A stretch of 64,000 bases of DNA from Eledone cirrhosa (taxonomy: Eukaryota), in assembly GCA_964016885.1 (NCBI GenBank), contig OZ024741.1, positions 69,812,001-69,876,000 of the forward strand. Reading direction: 5' to 3'. Position 1 is the stretch's first letter, and each line of letters starts with the position of its first letter. The notes beneath the pieces were generated by a model. It worked only from the letters and a program-made list of their open reading frames with translations. It did no database searches and was not told the origin of the DNA. Both the position numbers and the translations under genes were made by a program. Below are positions 2,533-49,113 of this stretch, piece by piece.

Positions 2533-3370
2533 TAAAGGGCGGTGGATTGGAAGTATCGGTAGAGCGTCGGACAACATGCTTTGTGGCATATAGTTACGGC
2601 CCTTTATTTTAAGTTTTAAAGGGGTGGTGGATTGGAAGTATCGGTAGAGCGTCGGACAACATGCTTTGTGGCATATAGTTACGGCCCTTTATTTTAAGTT
2701 TTAAAGGGGTGGTGGATTGGAAGTATCGGTAGAGCGTCGGACAACATGCTTTGTGGCATATAGTTACGGCCCTTTATTTTAAGTTTTAAAGGGCTGGTGG
2801 GTTGGAAGTATCGGTAGAGCGTCGGACAACATGCTTTGTGGCATATAGTTACGGCCCTTTATTTTAAGTTTTAAAGGGGTGGTGGATTGGAAGTATCGGT
2901 AGAGCGTCGGACAACATGCTTTGTGGCATATAGTTACGGCCCTTTATTTTAAGTTTTAAAGGGGTGGTGGATTGGAAGTATCGGTAGAGCGTCGGACAAC
3001 ATGCTTTGTGGCATATAGTTACGGCCCTTTATTTTAAGTTTTAAAGGGGTGGTGGATTGGAAGTATCGGTAGAGCGTCGGACAACATGCTTTGTGGCATA
3101 TAGTTACGGCCCTTTATTTTAAGTTTTAAAGGGCTGGTGGGTTGGAAGTATCGGTAGAGCGTCGGACAACATGCTTTGTGGCATATAGTTACGGCCCTTT
3201 ATTTTAAGTTTTAAAGGGGTGGTGGATTGGATGTATCGGTAGAGCATTGGACAACATGCTTTGCGGAATATAGTTACAGCCCTTTATTTTAAGTTTTAAA
3301 GGGGTGGTGGATTGGAAGTATCGGTAGAGCATCGGACAACATGCTTTGCGGCATGTAGTTACAGCCCTGT
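2533..3370 (+). repeat. 85-bp tandem array (10 units) of the SINE family 1 head
   Basis: GGTGGATTGGAAGTATCGG recurs at 2541, 2626 ... 3306; the last unit continues into a full SINE. Confidence 0.95.
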
Positions 3371-16501: not shown

Positions 16502-16730
16502 ATATTAAAGATTAGCGAAAATGAGAATATTTATGCAGAACTGATGAGAAATCTGCAGATACTCCACCTTGATTACACCTTCAGATTTATGCCTGTGATT
16601 GTTGGGGCACTGGGGTATGTTAGTAACTGCCTCAATACAAATCTTGAGAAGCTGGGCTTCACAGGAACAGAAAGAACACAACTAGTTAGGAAATTACAAG
16701 TACAATCCATTAATGGAACAGTAAAAATAT
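16501..16730 (+). mobile_element. C-terminal fragment of an R4/Dong-like (restriction-like endonuclease) non-LTR element
   Basis: IYAELMRNLQIL..FRFMPVIVGALGYV..LEKLG..LVRKLQVQSINGTVKI, adjacent to (CATA)n. Confidence 0.7.
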
Positions 16731-16731
16731 A

Positions 16732-16913
16732 TAACGAAGGAGGTGTGGTAACGAACCAGATGGACCATAACGCACCAGAGTACTCAATACTTAGGAGGGT
16801 AGTAGAGTGGGTAATAGGAAAATGTTTAACCCCGACGGCAGAGCTCACGCCTTTTCGACGGCTATTATAGTCGTGGAAACGGCTTGAGCTCTGCCGTCGG
16901 GGTTAAACATTTT

Positions 16914-16918
<5 letters not shown>
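16732..16918. mobile_element. Short fold-back family (copies also at 26003-26128, 32503-32682, 42129-42345) carrying the 3' half of a hammerhead
   Basis: Shared GAAACGGCTTGAGCTCTGCCGTCGGGG and tail TAAGTATTGAGTACTCTGGTGCGTTATGG; all abut (TA)n. Confidence 0.8.
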
Positions 16919-16974
<56 letters not shown>

Positions 16975-20517: not shown

Positions 20518-21699
20518 AATGAGGTCAAAGTTAAAGTAAGTTGATTTATCCGAAAACTTAGATATGCTATTGTTACAAAGCAAACTAACAATTTTTTATA
20601 TTTGTAGTTGCAGTCTGACTGGACTGGAAACCATCTACTACAATTCACTTACTCATTTGTTGTATATATTTTACCATTTACTAATAAATATACCCTCCCG
20701 TGTGGTCATGAAAACCCTCTTCTGTGGTCTCTAAGCTCACAAAGCAGAGGGGACATCAAGTTAGATATCAACATTTATTCTGTCTGTTTCATTAAAGGGA
20801 AAATTGGAAAGCTTTGAAATGATATAATTGCCACTTTCTTCCAGATAAGAGCACTCTTTGGATAGACAGAGTTGCTCTTGTATAAATGTTCAAAATAGTT
20901 GGTATCGCCTGGTGGGAATATAACAAATTCAACTGGTCCTTATTCATAAAAAAGAACATTTATGTTCCATTTTTTGAAATTTATATATTTCCTTTCAAGG
21001 AATATATTTATACTCCCAGCTGCCTGCAATGGTATCTTTGGAATATTGTTAATCAATTTTTTAGTAATCTACAGATATCAAAATCAGTAGTATATTGAAA
21101 AATGGAAAAATAGGGTAGGGGGGCGTTTCGTGATTTCGAGGGACAAAAGGGGGCGTTTGGCCTAAACGGGTTGAGAACCTGTGCTTTAGATGGTAACCAC
21201 TATTTTCAAAATATACCAGAGTGACAAGGAAAAATAACCCAGTATCAACCAAGGAAACGAACAACATGACGAAGTGGGCTAGTAACGAGGCAAAATAAAC
21301 CAGTCACTGCCTGGGGACGAAAAACAAGACGAAGTATAATCGTTAGATAATACACGATAAATTACAGGAGAGGAAAGAAAATGACAGACACGTACCTGTA
21401 GCGATATAATGAAACAAAATAGAGGAAATCTCTCTTAAATGAATTACAACAGCCAAGTTTTTAGACTGAAAGCAAAAATTGCGCAACACACACACACACA
21501 TACATGCGCATATATATATATACACACACACGTACCCACACACACACACGTACACACACACGTATATATATATATATGAAAATAAAGTATTATAATCAAT
21601 AAGAAGCATTGTGAGATATGTAATAAAAGACTGATACGATTTAAAAGGCTGGTACAATGTGGTAGAAATATATAAAAGGAAAAGAATGACAAATAAGAC

Positions 21700-21985
21700 A
21701 AAACAATGTGATTGTCTAATCAATAACGCATATGTGATCTACAAGGTCACATGCAAAAAAAATATGGCTCCTAGTGCATCGGAAATGCCATCTGGATTGT
21801 GAACATAGGGATCAAGGAGCAAGTAACGACGAGATCTTCTGTTAAAACATACCTTGACATGCCGCAGCTAAGAGATTGGGGTTACCATAGAGTCGATGTA
21901 AAGAAATGTGGACAATTTAAGAATCAAAGAGGCCATTATCATCAACCAGCAAAAAACAGAGATAAATAAACAGATTGGAAATGCA
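21700..21985 (+). pseudogene. Degraded PLE GIY-YIG fragment related to the intact element
   Basis: CLINNAYVIYKVTCK..IGIKEQ..RNVDNLRIKEAIIINQ..IN aligns with AYVVYRLECDK..RIKEH..RNLGNLRIKEALII..IN. Confidence 0.75.
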
Positions 21986-22345: not shown

Positions 22346-22357
<12 letters not shown>

Positions 22358-24174
22358 AAGAATCAAAGAGCTGTTCAAAACATTATTGTGCTTACAGCTG
22401 TTTCCTCCAAACCGAGGTTTGGATTCTTCGGAGCAATTTATTAATGCATGGACAGTTATATGACCTCCTTTTCAGCCGAGAGACATACCGATCCATATTC
22501 AAACATTGTGGGTCAACATTCATTACAGAATTTAGAGTGGCAGTACACACTTCGAGATTACATTTATATTAAGAGGTACAATCAAAAATCAAAAATACAG
22601 GTTAAAATACAACATGAAGATAAGCGGTTATATAGTGGAAATGTTATGTGTGGCACGCATGTGCGTCTTGTTTATATAGTGTGGCAGAGAGATATGTGTG
22701 GTAGAGGCACTTAGGTAGGTAAACAAGAGTGTTAGGTTGGTAGATCTGGTGGCAAATTCTTTATATGATTGATATAGTCTGTGTGTGGAGAAATGTTATA
22801 AGCATTAAAAATAGTGCAAGCATTAAAAGTGTTAAAAGTATTGGAGATGCACAGCGAAGGGCTGTCAAGTATTTCATGTACTTCGACATTTTCATGGTCA
22901 GGGGAGTGTATTTTTCGATTATATGCCCCTCACATAATCCACGACAATTCGATATTGAGCGTTTGACAATCCAGTTAGAGATCGTAGTCTGGTGTTCTTT
23001 AGTTCAATACAGGAGGCTGTTACGTTTCGAGAAACGCCATTGAATACCACCCGGAAGTGTGTGTGTGGCTAAGGGGAGTTAATGCATGCGGGGAGGTAAC
23101 TCCGGGGTTTCTATACCTAGCTATTAAAATGTGTCACAATGTAGACCCTAAATTCTATGGTGATGCGCATCCTCCAAAAAAAAAAAGGAGGATGCGCATC
23201 ACCATAGAATTTAGGGTCTACATTGTGACACATTTTAATAGCTAGGTATAGAAACCCCGGAGTTACCTCCCCGCATGCATTAACTCCCCTTAGCCACACA
23301 CACACTTCCGGGTGGTATTCAATGGCGTTTCTCGAAACGTAACAGCCTCCTGTATTGAACTAAAGAACACCAGACTACGATCTCTAACTGGATTGTCAAA
23401 CGCTCAATATCGAATTGTCGTGGATTATGTGAGGGGCATATAATCGAAAAATACACTCCCCTGACCATGAAAATGTCGAAGTACATGAAATACTTGACAG
23501 CCCTTCGCTGTGCATCTCCAATACTTTTAACACTTTTAATGCTTGCACTATTTTTAATGCTTATAACATTTCTCCACACACAGACTATATCAATCATATA
23601 AAGAATTTGCCACCAGATCTACCAACCTAACACTCTTGTTTACCTACCTAAGTGCCTCTACCACACATATCTCTCTGCCACACTATATAAACAAGACGCA
23701 CATGCGTGCCACACATAACATTTCCACTATATAACCGCTTATCTTCATGTTGTATTTTAACCTGTATTTTTGATTTTTGATTGTACCTCTTAATATAAAT
23801 GTAATCTCGAAGTGTGTACTGCCACTCTAAATTCTGTAATGAATGTTGACCCACAATGTTTGAATATGTATCGGTATGTCTCTCGGCTGAAAAGGAGGTC
23901 ATATAACTGTCCATGCATTAATAAATTGCTCCGAAGAATCCAAACCTCGGTTTGGAGGAAACAGCTGTAAGCACAATAATGTTTTGAACAGCTCTTTGAT
24001 TCTTATATTTCATATAACTGCTCTGTAAATCATCTGATGTTTTTACATTGAGCTACTTAACTTACTGGTAATAAGGTAGTAATACATTACTGCCTACCAC
24101 TATTTAGGGTGTATGTAAAATACTTATAACTGCATAAGGTTTTGTATTTACATAACCATAGATAGTATAACTAA

Positions 24175-25921: not shown

Positions 25922-26004
<83 letters not shown>

Positions 26005-26139
26005 TAAAATATATGACCCCGACGGCAGAGCTCAAGCCGTTTCGACTAAATTAGAATTTTTAGCCTAAGTATTGAGTACTCTGGTGCGTTATGGTCCATC
26101 TGGTTCCTTACCACAACTCCTTCGTTATATATATATATG

Positions 26140-26171
<32 letters not shown>

Positions 26172-32122: not shown

Positions 32123-33285
32123 GATAAATCTACCAAGAGTTTACGGTAGTGTCCAATCCGTATGAAGAACTCAATGTAATCCGGATATCATGGAAAGAAG
32201 AGATGCATTCAAAAATCACTTTCGGTGAAAGATAAACGGAATACAGAGTCAAGATAAAATATTTAAAAAATAATGAATAAAACAATGAAACAGTTCCTTA
32301 TATTAAACAAAAAAAGTTCATTATTTAACGATCGTTTCTAGGACATATATGTGTTAGAATTGGCATGCATATTCAACAGATCTATGTACAAAATTATACA
32401 AAATTATACAAACTATCAAATTTAATATACATACCAACACATACATATGCCGTCTTCAGAAATAATGTATATATATATATAATAATGTATATATATATAT
32501 ATATAGGAAAAAGTATGACCCCGACGGCAGAGCTCAAGCCGTTTCGACGGCTATTTCTGGACCAGAAATAACCGTCGAAACGGGGTCATACTTTTTCCTA
32601 TTTCCCACTCTACTACCCTAAGTATTGAGTACTCTGGTGCGTTATGGTCCATCTGGTTCCTTACCACAATTCCTTTGTTATATACATATATATATATATA
32701 TGGGAGGAGGAGGTTATAGTTCACTTGAAGCATTGTGTAATGAGGTATAAACGTTAGAATATGTGTAATAAGGCCAAGACAATGCAGATATGGACATAGA
32801 AAAAAGAATGCAATAGTGAAAGATATTGATGAGAATTCGTCTTTCACCTTGAATTTATTTAAATGTCCTTAATTTTCGAGATAATATCTCTTCTTCGGAG
32901 GGAAGTAAAAGTCTCAGACCAGCGTCTAAATTTCCAATGAAGCCATGCTGACCGGAAATAGTATAGAGTTCTAACTTTAATATCAAAGAATTAAAATTAG
33001 GTGGGTAAAGAGTAGTCTCCCTTTAAGAGGGGTTTGTTTATGTTTTTGTTGTGTTTTTTTAAATTTTATATGCGTGCCTGTATATGTGTGTGGGAGAAAG
33101 CATGAAGGTGTAGGTATGTGGGTGTGTGTGTGTGTGAGTGTGGGAAGATAGGTCTAATCGTAAAAGTGGGGGGTAGGTGTTATCTGGTGTTAGAACTGGT
33201 TTTGTGTGTGTATGTGTGAGGGAGAATAAGTGGAGATGTGCGCGTGCGTGTGTGTGGGGTGTGTAAAGTGGGGCTAGAGGCCCTA

Positions 33286-35417
33286 TCAGGTTATAAATTG
33301 GGTGTTGAGCTCTAGTCTATTATTGATTGGTGGATGTGTTCTATCTATAATGAGTGCTTCCTTGATTCTAAGATTGCCGAGGTTTCTTTCCTTAGTTTCT
33401 ATCCTAACTGTTATGTTTTTATCAGTGTTTTTGCATTTAACTGGGTGTTTCTTAAATGAGGAAGCGTTAGTATTGAGGTGTTCTTTTATTCTTATGTGGA
33501 GTGGTCTGGTGGTGCTACCTACGTAGAAGTTGTTGCATTTGTCACACTCTAGTCTGTAAACTACGTAAGCCTGGTGGCATAGGTCTGTGTCGTTGATGGG
33601 GCAGTTGGCTAGTCTGCAGCAGTTGTCATGTCTGGTGGAGTGTCTCTTAGCTAGCCGTCCACGCAAAGAAGGACCCGAATGGGCCAGTTGAATATCCAGA
33701 CCTTCTCGTCTGATGGCTCTGCGGATGGCTGTTGTTGTTTCTTCACTGAAGTGTGGGAGCTTCAGGAAGCAAGTGTTAGTGCCTCGGGTGTGGTGTCCTC
33801 TGTTCTTTCTGGCACGGTTTGTGGTGGATGTCGTGTATCCGTTCAGTTTGAGTACTTCCAGGAAATGTGTGGTGTGTGTGTCTCGGTCTCTGGCGTCGGT
33901 GCATTTGTTCTTGATACGTGCCAGTTCGTTCTTTATGTATCCGAACTTGGCACCGAGTGGGAGGGCCGATCTGAAATGTACGAACAGGTCCCTGCTGGCG
34001 GCTTTTTTATAGAAGCAGGTGTGGATGTTGCCTTCCTCTGTTACCCTGAGTTGGAAGTCCAGCAGGGATAGGGATCCGCGGTCATCGGGGTGTTCTATGC
34101 TGAACTTTATACTGGCGTCCATGCTGGAGAATGTTGTGTATATTTTCTCTGCCTCCTCACGGGATGATGTAAGGATGAGTATGTCATCTACATATCGGGT
34201 GAAGAAGGCATGGGAATGGCAGGTGTTGAGGGCTCGGCATTCTAGTTGGTTCATGTAAGTGATGGCCAGCAGGCCAGAGAGGCTGGATCCCATGGGTAAT
34301 CCTGTTGTCTGTCTGTATGTGTGGTGGTGGAAGGTGAAGTACGTGTTGTCGACTGTGAAGGACAAAAGTTGGTGTATGTCCGTCGGGTGGAGGCCGTAGC
34401 AGTGGATGTTCTCTGCGACCACGCAGTCCGTCAATAAATCGACAGCTGGGTGAGCGGGGACTGTAGTGTAGAGGGAGACAACGTCGAGGCTAAAAGCGTA
34501 TTTATTAAGTTTAAGTTGTTCTGGCTGGAGTTGGTGTAATCTACGTATAACTTCGTCGGAGCTACTGACATGTCCGGGGAAGGTGGAGAGTAGAGGCTTG
34601 AGGACCTGGGAGAGAAGCCAGGAAATTTTGTATAGGGGTCCTTCTATGCTAGAGACGATGGGTCTTATATGCGTCTTAGTGCTATTCTTGTGGGTCTTGA
34701 TGAGGTGGTAGAAAGTGGGCAGTCTGCTATTTCTAGTGGTGTAGTTGAGTTTAATTTTATTCGGGAGTTGTCTTCTCCTACAGATATCGAACCAAATGGA
34801 GTTGGTCTGTTTTTCGATTTGGGCTGCGGTCATGTCCGGGATCACTGTGTACAGTTCACTGTCGCTTAGGTGTTCGAAGGCTAAGTTATTGTATGTGGCT
34901 TGAGAGATGACGCAGAACTCTTTACCTTTGTCGGATGGTAAGTAAATAAGTTCTTTATTCCGTAGGTTCTTCAGGGCGAGTTGTTGTGTCCTGGAGAGGT
35001 TAGGGGCCATCTTCTTCTGTTTCCGTAAGATGTTAAATACGGAATGTTTTAGCCTCGAGAGTTTTTCTTCCAGCTCGCGGTTGGCGGGCGGTGGATAGAG
35101 TGGGCGATCTAGTTGGTATATCGGGAATCTGGGTGTGGTGGATTCCGTGGTGTTGTTGTCGAGAGTCGATATCCATTTCAGTTGGTAGGCAGTCCGACAG
35201 AAATTCGTTTCTATGTCGAGCCATAGTCTGTCGTCCAGTCTCTGTTTCAATATGAACTTGGGACCCAGGCTGAGGAGGTCTAATTCCTCTCGGGAGAGGG
35301 ATCCTGTCAAGTCTGTGACGAGGTGTTTTGCGTCAGGTGTGTTGTTGGTCGGGGTGCCGCTAGGTTCGGTGTTGGTAACGTATTGTTCGCCTCTGTTGGT
35401 GTTTAGCGTTGGGATGT
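33286..35417 (-). CDS. 5'-truncated second copy of the PLE RT/GIY-YIG ORF
   Basis: ORF 33286..35310 matches the C-terminal ~674 aa of the plus ORF; the N-terminal ~150 aa are missing. Confidence 0.9.
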
Positions 35418-35479
35418 GTCCATATCTGCATTGTCTTGGCCTTATTACACATATTCTAACGTTTATACCTCATTACACA

Positions 35480-38062
35480 ATGCTTCAAGTGAACTATAAC
35501 CTCCTCCTTTCATTACGCCTGAGCCAGGCCCAGTTCACAACTGTAAAGAAACTCTTCCAGCTATCTGAAAAGCGCGCCAAAGCCGGCTGCCAAATAAATT
35601 TCCTAAAACGATGCCTGAATAACAACATCATTCCCAAAACCATCAAAAATTTACACCTACCAACATGCTTCAAATCACCAGGCCTCAAACGATCACTCAG
35701 TTACATACAAAAATTCTGCCTAAGAAAACTCATACAACACCTACACCGCACGCTACAACATCACATACGGACTATCTCCAGCCTTGTACCACAACTCGCT
35801 GAAACCCCAGAACCTCTGTCCAAGGTCATCTCCGCCACTATAGACAGGTCATACCACCACCGCCGAGACTACGAGAAAATACGCCTAAAACAAAAATTTC
35901 TCAAACTCAGGACGGCCAACTGTCTTAACAACATCCCAACGCTAAACACCAACAGAGGCGAACAATACGTTACCAACACCGAACCTAGCGGCACCCCGAC
36001 CAACAACACACCTGACGCAAAACACCTCGTCACAGACTTGACAGGATCCCTCTCCCGAGAGGAATTAGACCTCCTCAGCCTGGGTCCCAAGTTCATATTG
36101 AAACAGAGACTGGACGACAGACTATGGCTCGACATAGAAACGAATTTCTGTCGGACTGCCTACCAACTGAAATGGATATCGACTCTCGACAACAACACCA
36201 CGGAATCCACCACACCCAGATTCCCGATATACCAACTAGATCGCCCACTCTATCCACCGCCCGCCAACCGCGAGCTGGAAGAAAAACTCTCGAGGCTAAA
36301 ACATTCCGTATTTAACATCTTACGGAAACAGAAGAAGATGGCCCCTAACCTCTCCAGGACACAACAACTCGCCCTGAAGAACCTACGGAATAAAGAACTT
36401 ATTTACTTACCATCCGACAAAGGTAAAGAGTTCTGCGTCATCTCTCAAGCCACATACAATAACCTAGCCTTCGAACACCTAAGCGACAGTGAACTGTACA
36501 CAGTGATCCCGGACATGACCGCAGCCCAAATCGAAAAACAGACCAACTCCATTTGGTTCGATATCTGTAGGAGAAGACAACTCCCGAATAAAATTAAACT
36601 CAACTACACCACTAGAAATAGCAGACTGCCCACTTTCTACCACCTCATCAAGACCCACAAGAATAGCACTAAGACGCATATAAGACCCATCGTCTCTAGC
36701 ATAGAAGGACCCCTATACAAAATTTCCTGGCTTCTCTCCCAGGTCCTCAAGCCTCTACTCTCCACCTTCCCCGGACATGTCAGTAGCTCCGACGAAGTTA
36801 TACGTAGATTACACCAACTCCAGCCAGAACAACTTAAACTTAATAAATACGCTTTTAGCCTCGACGTTGTCTCCCTCTACACTACAGTCCCCGCTCACCC
36901 AGCTGTCGATTTATTGACGGACTGCGTGGTCGCAGAGAACATCCACTGCTACGGCCTCCACCCGACGGACATACACCAACTTTTGTCCTTCACAGTCGAC
37001 AACACGTACTTCACCTTCCACCACCACACATACAGACAGACAACAGGATTACCCATGGGATCCAGCCTCTCTGGCCTGCTGGCCATCACTTACATGAACC
37101 AACTAGAATGCCGAGCCCTCAACACCTGCCATTCCCATGCCTTCTTCACCCGATATGTAGATGACATACTCATCCTTACATCATCCCGTGAGGAGGCAGA
37201 GAAAATATACACAACATTCTCCAGCATGGACGCCAGTATAAAGTTCAGCATAGAACACCCCGATGACCGCGGATCCCTATCCCTGCTGGACTTCCAACTC
37301 AGGGTAACAGAGGAAGGCAACATCCACACCTGCTTCTATAAAAAAGCCGCCAGCAGGGACCTGTTCGTACATTTCAGATCGGCCCTCCCACTCGGTGCCA
37401 AGTTCGGATACATAAAGAACGAACTGGCACGTATCAAGAACAAATGCACCGACGCCAGAGACCGAGACACACACACCACACATTTCCTGGAAGTACTCAA
37501 ACTGAACGGATACACGACATCCACCACAAACCGTGCCAGAAAGAACAGAGGACACCACACCCGAGGCACTAACACTTGCTTCCTGAAGCTCCCACACTTC
37601 AGTGAAGAAACAACAACAGCCATCCGCAGAGCCATCAGACGAGAAGGTCTGGATATTCAACTGGCCCATTCGGGTCCTTCTTTGCGTGGACGGCTAGCTA
37701 AGAGACACTCCACCAGACATGACAACTGCTGCAGACTAGCCAACTGCCCCATCAACGACACAGACCTATGCCACCAGGCTTACGTAGTTTACAGACTAGA
37801 GTGTGACAAATGCAACAACTTCTACGTAGGTAGCACCACCAGACCACTCCACATAAGAATAAAAGAACACCTCAATACTAACGCTTCCTCATTTAAGAAA
37901 CACCCAGTTAAATGCAAAAACACTGATAAAAACATAACAGTTAGGATAGAAACTAAGGAAAGAAACCTCGGCAATCTTAGAATCAAGGAAGCACTCATTA
38001 TAGATAGAACACATCCACCAATCAATAATAGACTAGAGCTCAACACCCAATTTATAACCTGA
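35480..38062 (+). CDS. PLE polyprotein: reverse transcriptase + Cys linker + GIY-YIG endonuclease (~860 aa)
   Basis: PSDKG, FYHLIKTHK..RPIVS, SLDVVSLYT, QTTGLPMGSSLS, RYVDD, LSLLDF; endonuclease VVYRLECDKC..YVGSTTRPLHIRIKEH..KEALII..IN. Residues before 35417 in the ORF track are read-through of the inverted arm; ATG 35480 is the first Met inside the element. Confidence 0.93.
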   Translation: MLQVNYNLLLSLRLSQAQFTTVKKLFQLSEKRAKAGCQINFLKRCLNNNIIPKTIKNLHLPTCFKSPGLKRSLSYIQKFCLRKLIQHLHRTLQHHIRTISSLVPQLAETPEPLSKVISATIDRSYHHRRDYEKIRLKQKFLKLRTANCLNNIPTLNTNRGEQYVTNTEPSGTPTNNTPDAKHLVTDLTGSLSREELDLLSLGPKFILKQRLDDRLWLDIETNFCRTAYQLKWISTLDNNTTESTTPRFPIYQLDRPLYPPPANRELEEKLSRLKHSVFNILRKQKKMAPNLSRTQQLALKNLRNKELIYLPSDKGKEFCVISQATYNNLAFEHLSDSELYTVIPDMTAAQIEKQTNSIWFDICRRRQLPNKIKLNYTTRNSRLPTFYHLIKTHKNSTKTHIRPIVSSIEGPLYKISWLLSQVLKPLLSTFPGHVSSSDEVIRRLHQLQPEQLKLNKYAFSLDVVSLYTTVPAHPAVDLLTDCVVAENIHCYGLHPTDIHQLLSFTVDNTYFTFHHHTYRQTTGLPMGSSLSGLLAITYMNQLECRALNTCHSHAFFTRYVDDILILTSSREEAEKIYTTFSSMDASIKFSIEHPDDRGSLSLLDFQLRVTEEGNIHTCFYKKAASRDLFVHFRSALPLGAKFGYIKNELARIKNKCTDARDRDTHTTHFLEVLKLNGYTTSTTNRARKNRGHHTRGTNTCFLKLPHFSEETTTAIRRAIRREGLDIQLAHSGPSLRGRLAKRHSTRHDNCCRLANCPINDTDLCHQAYVVYRLECDKCNNFYVGSTTRPLHIRIKEHLNTNASSFKKHPVKCKNTDKNITVRIETKERNLGNLRIKEALIIDRTHPPINNRLELNTQFIT

Positions 38063-38446
38063 TAGGGCCTCTAGCCCCACTTTACACACCCCACACACAC
38101 GCACGCGCACATCTCCACTTATTCTCCCTCACACATACACACACAAAACCAGTTCTAACACCAGATAACACCTACCCCCCACTTTTACGATTAGACCTAT
38201 CTTCCCACACTCACACACACACACACCCACATACCTACACCTTCATGCTTTCTCCCACACACATATACAGGCACGCATATAAAATTTAAAAAAACACAAC
38301 AAAAACATAAACAAACCCCTCTTAAAGGGAGACTACTCTTTACCCACCTAATTTTAATTCTTTGATATTAAAGTTAGAACTCTATACTATTTCCGGTCAG
38401 CATGGCTTCATTGGAAATTTAGACGCTGGTCTGAGACTTTTACTTC

Positions 38447-38481
38447 CCTCCGAAGAAGAGATATTATCTCGAAAATTAAGG
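38447..38481 (+). ncRNA. Minimal type I hammerhead ribozyme in the PLE 3' region (mirror copy 32867-32901, minus)
   Basis: cct-CCGAAGA-a-gagat[att]atctc-GAAA-at-TA-agg: stem I cct/agg, hairpin stem II, palindromic AATT in place of stem III; predicted cut after 38478. Core has the U4C variant. Confidence 0.75.
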
Positions 38482-38595
38482 ACATTTAAATAAATTCAAG
38501 GTGAAAGACGAATTCTCATCAATATCTTTCACTATTGCATTCTTTTTTCTATGTCCATATCTGCATTGTCTTGGCCTTATTACACATATTCTAAC

Positions 38596-38633
<38 letters not shown>

Positions 38634-38730
38634 CGATGAAATACCAATGAAGGTTGGAAGATCACTGATGAAGGACTAACTTTATTCATATGTAACCCAT
38701 TTGCAACCACGCACCACGTTTATTTTCATA

Positions 38731-38781: not shown

Positions 38782-41700
38782 CTACATTCTTTATATTTGT
38801 CTCAGAGACAGCTGATCCATCATCCACTGGCCTTCTCTGTGGCTCTAAGCCAGCAGAATCATAACGACCAGACTGCTCCTTGGCAGTGTAATTAGGGGCT
38901 CTAACCCTAGTGCTGTTAGATCGACTCTCCATATTTCTTTTCAATGGCTGACAATACCTTACCGGCGCCACTCGAATAAGGTAGTTATTTAACCCATAAA
39001 TGGAGCCCTAACAGGTACTACCACCCCGGGCCAGGGCAGACCTGGGAGTCATGACAACTAAGGGGTAACTCCACATTCCCCACATCTCCTGAACTCCCGA
39101 ACTGGAGCCTTGCCACTGGATGTAGTTTAATGTCATACCCAGGACAAATATAAAGAATGCAGTTTTGTCCTGCAGAAGAGCCATCAAAATGGGCACTTTG
39201 AATGTGAGGACTATTCGGACGCTGGAGAAGAGAGAGGAGTTGGGACATCTGTTCGAGGAGAGTGGTATACAGATACTTGCGATCCAAGAACACAGGATTC
39301 TACACGATGAGCCCGTGAGGAGTGTGATGATTGGGAAGAAGAGTCAGCTCATCACTACATCGGCAGTGAAGAACACAACAAATGCTGCAGTAGGAGGAGT
39401 GGGTTTTGTGTTCAGTGCAAAAACCAATCTGTTGGTGAGGGAAATAATGCCTATCTCCCCGCGAGTGTTGAGGGTGACCTTCAATGGAAACCCAAGACTG
39501 ACAGTCATCTCAGCCTATAGTCCAACCGAGGGGGACAGCGATGTGAATGCGGAAGAGTTCCATGAGGTGGTGTGTAGAGCTGTCAACACCACTCAGGCAC
39601 ACAATATCCTGCTTGTTTTGGGGGACTTCAATGCACATCTGAGTAAGGAGGGCAGTGAAGATCCTTGCTGGTACTTCCATAACAACACCAACCGAAATGG
39701 AAGACTACTGAGAGACACCCTGCTGGAGGCGAACTTGATGGCGACCAACCTAAGGTTTAGGAAGAATCTGGGGGAAGATGTGGACCTACATCTCAGATAT
39801 GCACCTGTCCAAGTCCCAGATTGATTTCATGCTGGTGAGGAAAAAGTGGCGGAATAGTGTTCTGAACACGGAACCATACTGCTATTTCAGTACACTGGGT
39901 AGTGACCACCGGCTTGTTATGAGTGAGGTCCGCGTGAGCTTAAGAAAGAGCAAGGCTCAGCCCCGGAGAACAATCTATGACTGGGGAGCTTTCAAGGAAG
40001 ATGATAAGCTACAGGAGAGGTTCACAGTGGAAGTGAGAAACAGGTTTAGTGCTCTGTGTGGAGAGTCAGAGGAGAGAGAGATTGGATGGACTGAGGAGAG
40101 TGTGACGAGGAGGTACGGGCACTTCACCAATGCAGTGGCGGAAGCAAGTGAAACCCTGGTGCCGAGGAAAAAGAATAAAGGGAAGCACGTCAGCTCTGCA
40201 AACCCAAAAGTGTGTGCAGCCAGAGAACACCTGAAAGCTGCCAGGGACCAATTCTATGCTGATCCTACGGAGGAGAGGATGGAGACTGTGGAGGTGATGA
40301 GGGAAGAGCTCTGTACCGCTTACACTGAGGTCAGAGAGGAGGCACTGATAGAGAAGATCAGAAGTGTGGAGGGAGTGGTTGACAGATCTGGATGTAAGGA
40401 GAGCTGGATGATCATCAGTGAGATCACAGGGAGGAAGAGAAGGTGTTCGAGTCAGATCCAGGGAACGGGGCCCGAGGATAGGAAGAGGAAATGGCTAGAC
40501 CATTTTAGGACCCTACTAGGAGAGCCACCCTCCACAGCCCAGAGCATTGGGGAGATCAGGCGGCTGTTTGAGGAACTGGATGTTGAGACAGAGCCCTTCA
40601 CCAGAGAGGAGCTTCAGAGAGCCAAGAAGAGGATCAAGGAGGGCAAGGCTCATGGAGAAGATGGAGTGGCATCAGAGGTGATGAAGAGGTGTGATTTTGA
40701 TGATATCATCCTGGGGTTCTGTAACGGGGCACTGGAGAAAGGAGTTGCCCCGAATCAGTGGAGGATCAGTAACATCGCCCCAGTGCCAAAGAAGGGAGAT
40801 CTCTCTAACACCAACAACTACCGGGGGATCTCACTGACGTCACTTGTGGCAAAGACCCTCAACAGGATGATTCTTAACAGGATCCAGCCTAAGATGGAGA
40901 AGAAGCTCAGGGACAACCAGAACGGCTTCAGAGAGGGTAGATCAACCACCAGTCACATCCTGATGCTGAGGAGGATATTAGAGGGAGCTAGAGCAAAGTG
41001 CCTTCCTGCGGTCATGGTTTTCATTGACTTTAGGAAGGCCTTTGATTCTGTGGACCGTTACTGCCTGATGAAGGTCTTACAGGCTTATGGAATCCCCAAG
41101 AAGATAGTGGACCTGATATCACTGCTCTACACCAACACCAAAGCCCAAGTCATTACACCTGATGGGATGACAGAGTTCATTGAGATACTGGCTGGAGTGC
41201 TCCAGGGAGATACATTGGCTCCCTACCTTTTTATCATCGTAGTGGACTATTGTATGCGCCTTGCACTGGAGAAACACCAGGACTCTGGCTTTACTGTAGC
41301 ACCGGCTCAGAGCAGGAGAGTTAAGGCGAAAAAGGTATCGGATGCTGAGTTTGCCGACGACAGTTTTGGTGACAAATACAGTGAAGGAGGCAGAGGATTT
41401 GATGCGGGAGGTTGAGACTGTGTCGATGAGTGTGGGGCTGAGAATGAATGAGACTAAAACAAAATATCTGGTAGAGAATGTTGAGAAGCCAGAGGGGATC
41501 ACTAATGTAGGCGGGAAGCCGCTGGAATTGGTTGAGGACTTCCTGTATTTGGGAGCAAAGATTGGGAATACGGAAGATGATGTGATTGAGAGGAAGAGCA
41601 AGGCCTAGGCGGCGTGCCACAGCTTGAGATCGGTGTGGAAGTCGGACCTTCGTAGAGACCTGAAAATCCGCCTCTTCATTGCTGTAGTGGAGTCTGTGCT

Positions 41701-42120
41701 GCTGTATGGGTCTGGGACTTGGACACTGACCAAGAAACTCACTCAGATGGTGGATGGGTGCTACACGAGAATGCTGAGGATGGTTCTGAACATTAATCAG
41801 TATACACTGAGGATGAAAAACTCAGAGCTGTATGGGAGCATCCCAAAAGTCAGCTCAAAAGTGACACAGAGGAGACTGAGGTTAGCTGGACATGCTCACC
41901 GACATCCAGAGTTGACATTGCACTCAGTACTCCTTTGGGAGCCCCTACATGGACACACTAGAAGTGGAAGACCAAGGTTAACGTATGTTGATGCCCTAAG
42001 GACAGACAGTGGTCTGTTGGAGATGCAGGACATGGCAGCGATAATGAGGGACAGAGACCGCTGGAGAGAACTCGTCCATCGATCTCGGGAATTTTACCCG
42101 CCTTAGATAGATAGATAGAT
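38781..42120 (+). mobile_element. Near full-length RTE-type non-LTR retrotransposon (APE + RT), inactivated
   Basis: Begins right after (TA)n, ends in (TAGA)n/(TA)n, and carries one long disrupted ORF. Confidence 0.9.
39189..42106 (+). pseudogene. RTE-type LINE ORF with frameshifts (~39775, ~41360) and an internal stop (41606-41608)
   Basis: GTLNVRT, LAIQEHR, SAYSPT, LGDFNA, QIDF, SDHRLV (APE); NYRGISL, QNGFREGRST, FIDFRKAFDS, GVLQGDTLAPYLF, EFADD, FLYLG (RT); LLYGSGTW..LRLAGH..GRPRLTY C-terminus. Confidence 0.92.
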
Positions 42121-42342
42121 ATATATATAACGAAGGAAGTGTGATAAGGAACTAGGTGCACCATAACGCACCAGAGTACTCAATACTTAGGGCAGTAGAG
42201 CGGGTAAAAAGAACATTTTCAAGACCCCGACGGCAGAGCTCAAGCCGTTTCGACGGCTATTTATGGACATAATTACATAAAACGTCCAGAAATAGCCGTC
42301 GAAATGCCTTGAGCTCTGCCGTCGGGGTCTTGAAAATTTTCC

Positions 42343-42371
<29 letters not shown>

Positions 42372-42373
<2 letters not shown>

Positions 42374-43220
42374 CTCACCTACCACCCATCACCCTACCTC
42401 TCCGGCGACATATTCTCCGTTCCTTCTGACTCCGACACTTTTTTCTTAGCCCACCTATCACTGCTTTTAAGCACGCCCGCAATCTCCGCGATCTTCTGGC
42501 ACGTGGTTCTTGCTCGTCCTCTCCTACGACTCCACCCGGCTCTCGTCCCCGCTGTAACACCTATCCTTTTATTTCCAGCCTCACCACTCTCTCATGCACC
42601 AACAGTTCATTCCGTATTCGCCACTCCTTTACCTGTACCTCTACCCACGTTGTCTATGCTCTCGAGTGTTCCCTTTGCGGGTCCTTATACATCGGACAAA
42701 CGGGACGCCGTTTGGCGGACGGTTTTGCTGAACATTTGAGGGACATACGACTCGGTATGGATACTGCCGTCATTTCCGTTCCCCAGGTCACTCCTTTGTG
42801 TCTTTTTATCACGGATCACAGACCTCACATACCAGGACTGAACAGGGTCTGATTTTCTGCATTGGGTCCTGTTTCCCTCATGGACTCAAGTCCCCTCCCA
42901 AATTTCTTTAATATTACACATATACGTTCGTGCCCCCCCCCCCCCGTCACGTTTACCCCATCCGTTATCACATACGCGCTTGTAAATTCACCCCTAGATT
43001 CCTATGGCTCTCTTATGGTCAGAAACATATACTCTTACAGCTGATACAGACCAACAAAATACGCACACATACCTCTACTTTTCCCTTCACAACTTTGTAT
43101 ACCCACACACACACTCCCCTTTATTAACATACTTTTGCTCACAGCTTCGTACTTACAAGCACACATACACTTTTTTACTTACATATACACGCACATAACC
43201 TCTTAGCTTCGTACGGACGT

Positions 43221-48892: not shown

Positions 48893-49113
48893 GTAAAAGG
48901 TAAACAGAAATAACAACACAATCGGTACAATATATGGAAGGAATATATTAGGTTAACACTTGAAATAGTAGGAAGAGGGTCTTAACGTTTCGGACGCTAG
49001 TCCTTCATCAGAAGAAAGAATGAGAAATAGGATAAATTGAATGGACGGGCTGGGTGGAATTGGAAAAAATGACTTTAGATAAAAATAACAGGTCCATTTT
49101 TGTTGACATCTGT

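What the first reader, a model, noticed from the sequence alone, without database searches (positions are those of the whole stretch)
32702..38602. Intact, very young PLE as a 5.9-kb fold-back whose two arms end at different 3' positions
Seen: 2672-bp arms, 513-bp spacer and an uninterrupted ORF. I noticed one difference between arms (synonymous TTA/CTA, 34884 vs 36464). The left arm runs ~41 nt further than the right, and both run past the 3' UTR back into the element's own 5' sequence (the left reaches the start codons MLQVNYNLL). The plus copy starts 74 nt downstream of the equivalent predicted ribozyme cut site. Inference: the template was a more-than-unit-length (tandem or circular) RNA trimmed by the hammerhead, and this is a candidate active driver element.
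Basis: partly seen in the sequence, partly recalled or inferred. Interest (0 to 1): 0.8.

Follow-up and report, generated by a model that had tools for sequence, protein, structure and literature searches.

The report
Young Penelope retroelement, twin-armed insertion
This is a real, intact, very young copy of a Penelope-like jumping gene in the head-to-head shape already known for these elements; across the genome nearly every such insertion pairs one short-ended with one long-ended arm copied from the same template sequence, which suggests the enzyme likely copies its RNA from both ends of the cut at once.

Summary
Observation confirmed: 2672-bp arms with one synonymous difference, a 513-bp spacer, an intact 860-aa RT + GIY-YIG ORF, and ends 40 nt apart. 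It is an EN+ Penelope-like element (PLE) with a Nematis-like linker, inserted in (TA)n. The shape (inverted 5'-truncated arm, 'tail' on one end) is published PLE architecture, and this scan met it before on other genomes. The family-level numbers are what add something. Of 120 two-armed insertions resolved, 118 pair one short end with one long end. Arm lengths are independent, yet arms and tandem units share minor alleles (188/198; 49/49; between loci 13%). 15 of 16 over-unit arms run through the likely transcription start, one arm reaching 2.7 units. Ten arms begin exactly at the predicted hammerhead cut (three control positions: 5, ≤1, ≤2). Best reading: twin priming at two RT start sites on a more-than-unit, possibly circular RNA; the circle was proposed in 2014. 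This copy lacks the upstream pLTR, so it is a weak driver candidate. No read spans the locus.

The parts
35480..38062 (+). Intact PLE ORF, 860 aa: N-terminal domain, GxKF (36080), DKG (36413), RT YVDD (37154), short Cys linker (37727), GIY-YIG endonuclease with CCHH (37787-38030)
   Evidence: (RVT_1 7e-16; GIY-YIG 3e-5)
35417..38602 (+). Plus arm: one 3135-nt unit plus 51 nt of terminal redundancy; ends at the 'short' end (AACGTTTATA|TA)
32705..35417 (-). Minus arm: 5'-truncated copy (unit 515->3186->91/92) ending at the 'long' end, i.e. carrying the 40-nt tail
32705..32745 (-). 40-nt 'tail' (unit 52-91), present on this arm only, including the first 9 codons
   Evidence: family rule
35417..35417 (.). 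Head-to-head junction of the arms, 1-nt overlap
   Evidence: family junctions: 51 overlaps, 4 blunt, 36 with inserted or other bases of 91
38399..38602 (+). 3' pLTR. Starts at the likely transcription start (TCA+1GC, A = 38399, unit 2983), inferred from the peak of 5' ends
38447..38481 (+). Minimal type-I hammerhead motif: CCU / CCGAAGA / A / GAGAU-AUU-AUCUC / GAAA-AU-UA|AGG; predicted cut 38478/38479
   Evidence: CUGAAGA in 25 and CCGAAGA in 156 of 197 copies; no Rfam hit
32867..32901 (-). Mirror copy of the hammerhead motif in the minus arm
32679..32704 (.). Left (TA)n target tract plus extra bases (TCC+C read on the minus strand)
38599..38632 (.). Right (TA)n target tract; its first TATA is shared with the element's short end

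Best explanation
This is a very young, intact Penelope-like retrotransposon inserted in a TA microsatellite as two head-to-head arms, likely made by two reverse-transcription reactions primed from the two ends of the cut target. Steps: (1) Shown: the family ends at two fixed points 40 nt apart, unit 47-51 (TATA shared with the target) and unit 91 (no homology; 0-4 extra bases). (2) Inferred from the lizard PLE biochemistry: the GIY-YIG domain cuts both strands in (TA)n, and RT starts internally at these two sites. (3) Shown: one arm uses each site in 118 of 120 insertions. Inferred: two RT centres, probably a protein dimer, occupy the two sites of one RNA. (4) Shown: the arms stop independently (0 to 2.7 units) and are joined by short overlaps or insertions; single-arm copies look like the limit where one arm is tiny. 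(5) Shown: arms and tandem units carry the same template alleles, and long arms pass the likely transcription start. Inferred: the template for long copies is more than unit length, most simply a hammerhead-cut, re-ligated circle, or else a tandem transcript. Short solo-pLTR arms would come from linear RNA starting at 2983 or cut at 3063.
For: End rule: of 80 loci anchored on a short end, 58 had a resolved partner and all 58 were long. Of 40 anchored on a long end, 27 had a resolved partner and all 27 were short. Top-hit set 16/16, two neighbouring events 2/2, and 15 of 17 in loci brought in by 5'-end patterns. Independent extension: in 91 pairs the short arm holds >15 nt absent from the long arm in 37, the reverse in 34, 20 are within 15 nt; for 34 pairs with both arms >300 nt, rho = -0.06. 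One template: minor allele agree/disagree is 188/10 for inverted arms, 49/0 for tandem units, 5643/36980 between loci. Over-unit: 15 of 16 arms reaching the second 2983 pass it; L171+L143 arm 1027->3186->3186->51. Hammerhead: 10 true 5' ends at 9 loci at unit 3063, against 5 arms at 3 loci at 3058, 1 hit at 3083, 2 hits at 3090. Raw reads of a separate study show the short end followed by TA (57 reads). PMC11167929: both strands cut and extended, two internal RT starts equal the tail, AF2 dimer predicted.
Against: Two exceptions: L183/L184 is short-short (older copy, duplicated flank) and L215/L216 is long-long. 22 of 80 and 13 of 40 anchored loci were single-armed or unresolved. PMC11167929 found no strand difference in start site, no need for the hammerhead in vitro, and no RNA-seq reads ending at the cut. 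The U4C core (CCGAAGA) of the youngest copies is untested for cleavage. The 3063 excess rests on 9 loci and three control positions; the 3083 and 3090 hits were not fetched, and several junctions are ambiguous by 1-3 nt. First-pass versus second-pass stopping at 2981-2991 (22/79 vs 1/16) is not significant (p = 0.11), and the over-unit set is biased to long copies. Shared alleles could come from two RNAs of one source locus or from later gene conversion. No read spans the window's junction.
Confidence: 0.7

Rival explanations
1. Self-priming or snap-back: one cDNA is made from the long end, folds back and copies itself until the TATA at unit 47-51 anneals to the target (related to the self-priming model of PMC3846280).
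For: It would also give one long and one short end. Perfect palindromes occur at some junctions (L072, L087, L098, L138). 20 of 91 pairs end within 15 nt; among long pairs 3 of 34 do, against 0.6 expected (p = 0.02).
Against: It requires the short arm to lie within the long arm. This fails in 37 of 91 pairs, including this window. Single arms with only the short end, TA on both sides, are common (e.g. L064, L067, L073, L074, L084, L140, L151). It can explain only a minority.
Confidence: 0.12
2. Same twin priming, but all over-unit copies come from linear read-through transcripts of tandem master loci, or from end-to-end template jumping across the pLTR; no circle, and the hammerhead is incidental.
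For: Tandem arrays exist (L032 about 2 units, L143 2.7 units). PMC11167929 proposes multi-copy mRNA and shows the hammerhead is dispensable in vitro. The main 5' peak is at the likely transcription start, not at the cut.
Against: Linear copying with heavy 5' truncation can only shorten arrays. Tandem units show 0 of 16 differences at shared polymorphic sites and 49/0 allele concordance. The excess of ends at 3063 suggests cleavage does occur. None of this excludes template jumping or young, homogeneous masters. This rival replaces step 5 only.
Confidence: 0.4
3. This particular 5.9-kb palindrome is an assembly or long-read fold-back artefact.
For: No contig or read crosses the 35417 junction in the runs laid (X1, X2, X3, X14 at the junction; X1, X4, X5, X13 over the whole locus).
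Against: The arms are not nested, differ at one base, have different unique flanks and obey the family end rule. More than 100 other loci show the same build with distinct junctions. Contigs drop rare variants and RAD-seq is sparse, so a blank proves nothing.
Confidence: 0.03

Closest known systems
Canonical EN+ PLE insertion unit: pLTR, adjacent inverted 5'-truncated copy, 30-40-bp tail at one end (PMC8557442; PMC3846280)
   Same: Partial tandems, head-to-head inverted arm, 40-nt tail on one arm reaching into the first codons, hammerhead in the pLTR, microsatellite target.
   Different: Those papers call the tail 'optional' or 'often at one end'. Here it is counted as near-strict complementarity (118/120), with tests of arm independence and shared template.
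PAc (Poseidon, Anolis carolinensis) in vitro mechanism (PMC11167929)
   Same: Two internal RT start sites define the tail; AT-rich target; both strands extended; predicted dimer.
   Different: Different clade (no Cys linker in Penelope/Poseidon). PAc's starts are 111-118 nt into the ORF region with the hammerhead over the start codon; here the ends flank the ATG (-12 and +28) and the hammerhead lies about 140 nt upstream. One end here has 4-nt target homology. They saw no ends at the cut; here there is a small excess.
Nematis clade of PLEs
   Same: C-terminal GIY-YIG with CCHH; short Cys linker directly before the EN; GxKF, DKG and xKTHK/RPI motifs resembling the three Nematis rows in the supplement of PMC8557442.
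   Different: The second Cys of CxxC is missing (C-x4-C-x8-C) in this protein and its 35-40% identical relatives. No named Nematis sequence was in my tree.
Hammerhead-circle model for PLEs (PMC4209133) and non-LTR retrozymes (PMC7761336; bioRxiv 10.64898/2026.07.22.740005)
   Same: Minimal type-I hammerhead with an unpaired A before stem II; proposed circular template for more-than-unit reverse transcription.
   Different: This element is autonomous and 3.1 kb. The model was a proposal without in vivo evidence; the genomic counts here bear on it but do not show a circle.

Membership tests
EN+ Penelope-like elements | Single ORF with RT and C-terminal GIY-YIG endonuclease | tested here: met
   profile matches telomerase RT among PDB hits
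EN+ Penelope-like elements | GxKF, DKG and CCHH motifs | tested here: met
   LGPKF, SDKG, CDKC..EH..H
EN+ Penelope-like elements | pLTR / partial tandem / inverted 5'-truncated copy / 30-40-nt tail | tested here: met
EN+ Penelope-like elements | Minimal hammerhead motif in the pLTR | tested here: met
   Motif matches the description in PMC4209133; CUGAAGA in 25 and CCGAAGA in 156 of 197 copies. Rfam gives no hit. Activity not tested.
Nematis clade | Reduced Cys linker directly upstream of the GIY-YIG | tested here: met
   CCRLANCPINDTDLC; shared across the clade that holds the protein
Nematis clade | Complete CX2-5CxxC motif | tested here: not met
   The second Cys of CxxC is absent; it is present in P0073 of the same clade
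Nematis clade | RT groups with named Nematis elements | tested here: inconclusive
   31-row short-linker clade, support 100/100, apart from linker-less and long-linker rows (76 of 116 usable homolog rows). No named reference in the tree; comparison with named Nematis by eye only. Filed as Nematis-like, not as a member.
Penelope/Poseidon clade | No Cys linker between RT and EN | tested here: not met
   Linker present; linker-less insect homologs are 24-27% identical and form a separate clade
Hydra clade | DKT instead of DKG, no CCHH, no GxKF | tested here: not met
   DKG, CCHH and GxKF all present
Naiad/Chlamys | N-terminal EN | tested here: not met
   EN is C-terminal
Neptune clade | Long Zn-finger linker; RT grouping | tested here: inconclusive
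   The linker here is short and nine long-linker rows branch apart; calling those rows Neptune-like is my recalled label
Circular-RNA-templated retroelement | Circular RNA joined at the hammerhead cut | not testable with these tools
   No RNA run listed

The most novel reading that the evidence does not exclude
This family records the unsolved PLE integration mechanism in its genomic copies. A protein dimer primes both target ends at two fixed sites 40 nt apart on one RNA, which is a hammerhead-cut circle for long copies. That single process would produce the tail, the inverted arm and the tandems, and the pile-up of 5' ends at unit 3063 would be in vivo evidence that a minimal PLE hammerhead cleaves.
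Probability: 0.3. Interest if true: 0.72.

Novelty: new member of a known kind. Interest (0 to 1): 0.45.

Why it matters
How PLEs build their tandem and inverted insertions, and what their hammerheads do, are stated open questions (PMC8557442, PMC7761336). A young family with about 1000 pLTR copies, intact ORFs and sharply defined ends turns them into counts and gives direct predictions: strand-complementary start sites, one RNA per insertion, and a circular junction at a named base. The single locus by itself is ordinary.

Tried and rejected
Rfam: no hammerhead hit; only TA-repeat miRNA noise. Folding the hammerhead region gave the expected stems but z = -0.2, so folding energy is no evidence; the start-site regions were also unremarkable. 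A second ribozyme at the GUC before unit 2983 was considered and rejected: no core around it (alignment). A cap-derived G before A2983: 6 of 21 hits have G, only 3 cleanly untemplated; a weak hint only. 'Trimmed 74 nt from the cut' rejected. My early note of '100 of 100 mixed' was corrected when two exceptions appeared. No RNA holder listed. Reads and contigs did not span the locus; inconclusive. The single-chain structure job had not finished and was not used. One control pattern included the templated base and served only as a copy count. L170 was fetched short (601 nt) but held its whole arm. PMC5785218 was not held. Literature searches for twin priming or strict end pairing in PLEs found no paper stating it; subscription papers (e.g. 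Arkhipova 2006, recalled) were not searchable. No earlier notes on this genome.

Full report
Coordinates. 'Unit' positions count from window 35417 = 1; the repeating unit is 3135 nt, so 3136-3186 equal 1-51.

1. Observation. The inverted repeat is as described: arms 32746-35417 and 35931-38602, 2672 nt, 513 nt apart, with one synonymous difference at 34884/36464. The plus arm is one unit plus 51 nt and carries an intact 860-aa ORF (35480-38062) with RVT_1 and GIY-YIG hits. The minus arm runs from unit 515 round to 91/92. Both ends sit in TA tracts and the arms overlap by 1 nt. Neither arm is contained in the other, which argues against a fold-back chimera. No contig or read crossing this junction was found, so the locus itself rests on the assembly.

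2. Identity. [quoted passage not shown] The nearest protein is 56% identical over 69% of the query, and the full-length relatives are 30-40% identical and unnamed. In a tree of 76 of 116 usable RT cores it lies in a 31-row clade (100/100) whose scorable rows all have 3-4 Cys before the EN, apart from linker-less Penelope/Poseidon-type rows. By eye it resembles the Nematis rows in the supplement of PMC8557442 but lacks the second Cys of CxxC, so I call it Nematis-like. Against an older intact copy there are 31 synonymous and 14 non-synonymous codon differences; against the two closest copies 0 and 3-6. That pattern fits selection between source lineages and unselected change in fresh copies.

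3. Family. The genome (G000, 3.0 Gb) holds 324 exact short-end junctions, 650 forward-strand long-end matches (the pattern also catches older subfamilies, and reverse counts are inflated by multiple matches per site) and 1001 copies of a pLTR 25-mer. 18 of 20 ORF-bearing segments fetched are intact (biased to top hits). Ends fall at unit 47-51 (TATA shared with the target) or 91 plus 0-4 bases (none 49, T 22, C 16, TT 7, others 9 of 103). A few other ends occur (L181, L188, L210, L214).

4. One end of each kind. I took 80 consecutive listed short ends not already held and 40 long ends not already paired with an exact short end. Short-anchored: 58 had a resolved head-to-head partner (47 of 25 nt or more, 9 tiny arms of 11-14 nt, 2 resolved with neighbouring stretches), all long; 22 were single or unresolved. 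Long-anchored: 27 resolved, all short; 13 single or unresolved. The top-hit set gave 16 of 16 (L039 ends in a gap, six were single-armed), and two neighbouring events were also mixed. Loci fetched for other reasons gave 15 mixed and two exceptions, short-short L183/184 and long-long L215/216. Total 118 of 120. Single-armed copies use either end, so independent choice would give about half same-type partners.

5. Two extensions, one template. In 91 pairs the short arm holds more than 15 nt missing from the long arm in 37, the reverse holds in 34, and 20 end together. Lengths are uncorrelated when both exceed 300 nt (rho -0.06, n = 34); over 71 pairs of all lengths rho is 0.53, driven by short pLTR pairs. 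Junctions are overlaps in 51, blunt in 4 and gaps in 36. At 62 polymorphic columns, parts of one insertion agree on minor alleles 188/198 (inverted) and 49/49 (tandem), against 5643/42623 between loci (segments of 94% identity or more, simple-repeat tract excluded). One RNA molecule, two RNAs of one locus, and later conversion cannot be separated here.

6. 5' ends. Among 124 young arms, 22 start at 2981-2991. All 21 genome-wide hits starting exactly at A2983 are true junctions. The site reads TCA+1GC (Inr-like, motif recalled), so it is the likely transcription start, giving a 244-nt pLTR. At the predicted hammerhead cut (3063), 16 hits resolve to 10 true 5' ends at 9 loci, 4 substitutions, 1 deletion and 1 junction duplication. 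Controls: 3058, 9 hits with 5 ends at 3 loci; 3083, 1 hit; 3090, 2 hits. Poisson P is 0.004 against a mean of 3 loci. This is a modest excess and concerns about 1% of pLTR copies. Of 28 over-unit arms, 21 pass 3063, and 15 of the 16 that reach 2991 pass the start region; the longest is 2.7 units. A monomeric linear transcript primed at its 3' pLTR could not be copied past 2983, so long copies need a circle, a tandem transcript or template jumping. The window's own 5' end (3136) is one of many scattered ends.

7. Driver? The window's ORF has 63 nt of element sequence upstream and lacks the 5' pLTR. One allele shared by its two arms was seen in no other sampled locus. It is better read as a recent product than as the source; expression is unknown.

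8. What is known. PMC3846280 (passages): tail optionally at the 3' end of one inverted pLTR; self-priming proposed. PMC8557442 (passages, sections 11-12, supplement passages): inverted 5'-truncated copy, tail often at one end, clade features. PMC11167929 (parts 1-2 of 4 of the text): two internal starts equal the tail, both strands extended, predicted dimer, hammerhead dispensable in vitro. PMC4209133 (part 1 and passages): minimal hammerheads, and the proposal of a circular template for more-than-unit copying. PMC7761336 (passages) and bioRxiv 10.64898/2026.07.22.740005 (part 1 and passages; supplements closed): hammerhead role in PLEs unresolved. Earlier unchecked notes of this scan describe the same architecture in other genomes; one reports folds beside, not at, the cut. 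My searches found no statement of strict end pairing or twin priming for PLEs, within a library that lacks most subscription papers.

9. Verdict. A real, ordinary member of a known class at the level of the locus. The family offers unusually clean evidence on an open mechanism. Confidence: genuine young PLE 0.95; twin priming at two sites 0.7; circle as template for long copies about 0.5; all parts of the novel case together 0.3. Interest 0.45.

Noticed in passing
window 22346-24016 (arms 22346-23175 / 23187-24016): A second young fold-back: 830-nt arms with one difference and an A11 centre. The left arm abuts a TA tract; on the right about 160 nt lie before the next TA tract. No match to this PLE; family unknown.
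   Followed up: partly
window 32150-32505: The left flank is itself a young high-copy repeat ending in a TA tract (40 scored places at 96-99%), and some copies show head-to-head pairs.
   Followed up: partly
window 32500-32690: Small palindromic element with relatives at 16728-16936, 25983-26148 and 42107-42363; very deep in the laid runs, with many internal deletion variants.
   Followed up: no
window 48970-49020 (minus strand) and 38650-38680: A canonical CUGAUGA hammerhead motif of another family at 49011, and a truncated CTGATGAAGGAC core in the right flank of the PLE. Several TA-targeting elements appear nested in the same tracts.
   Followed up: no
window 21680-21976 and 42634-42738: Decayed GIY-YIG fragments of other PLE families (tblastn).
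   Followed up: no
window 39189-41415: LINE-type element with an endonuclease-like ORF and an RT ORF split by a frame change.
   Followed up: partly
L059, L076, L089, L141, L147, L148, L155, L156, L169: Tiny long-end arms of 11-14 nt, many stopping near unit 80; easy to miss as 'single' insertions.
   Followed up: partly
hammerhead core, unit 3034-3040: The youngest subfamily carries CCGAAGA where some older copies have the canonical CUGAAGA (156 vs 25 of 197); the effect on cleavage is unknown.
   Followed up: partly
run X1 at window 35499: Three contigs continue from the long end into a run of A instead of TA; run type not on record.
   Followed up: no
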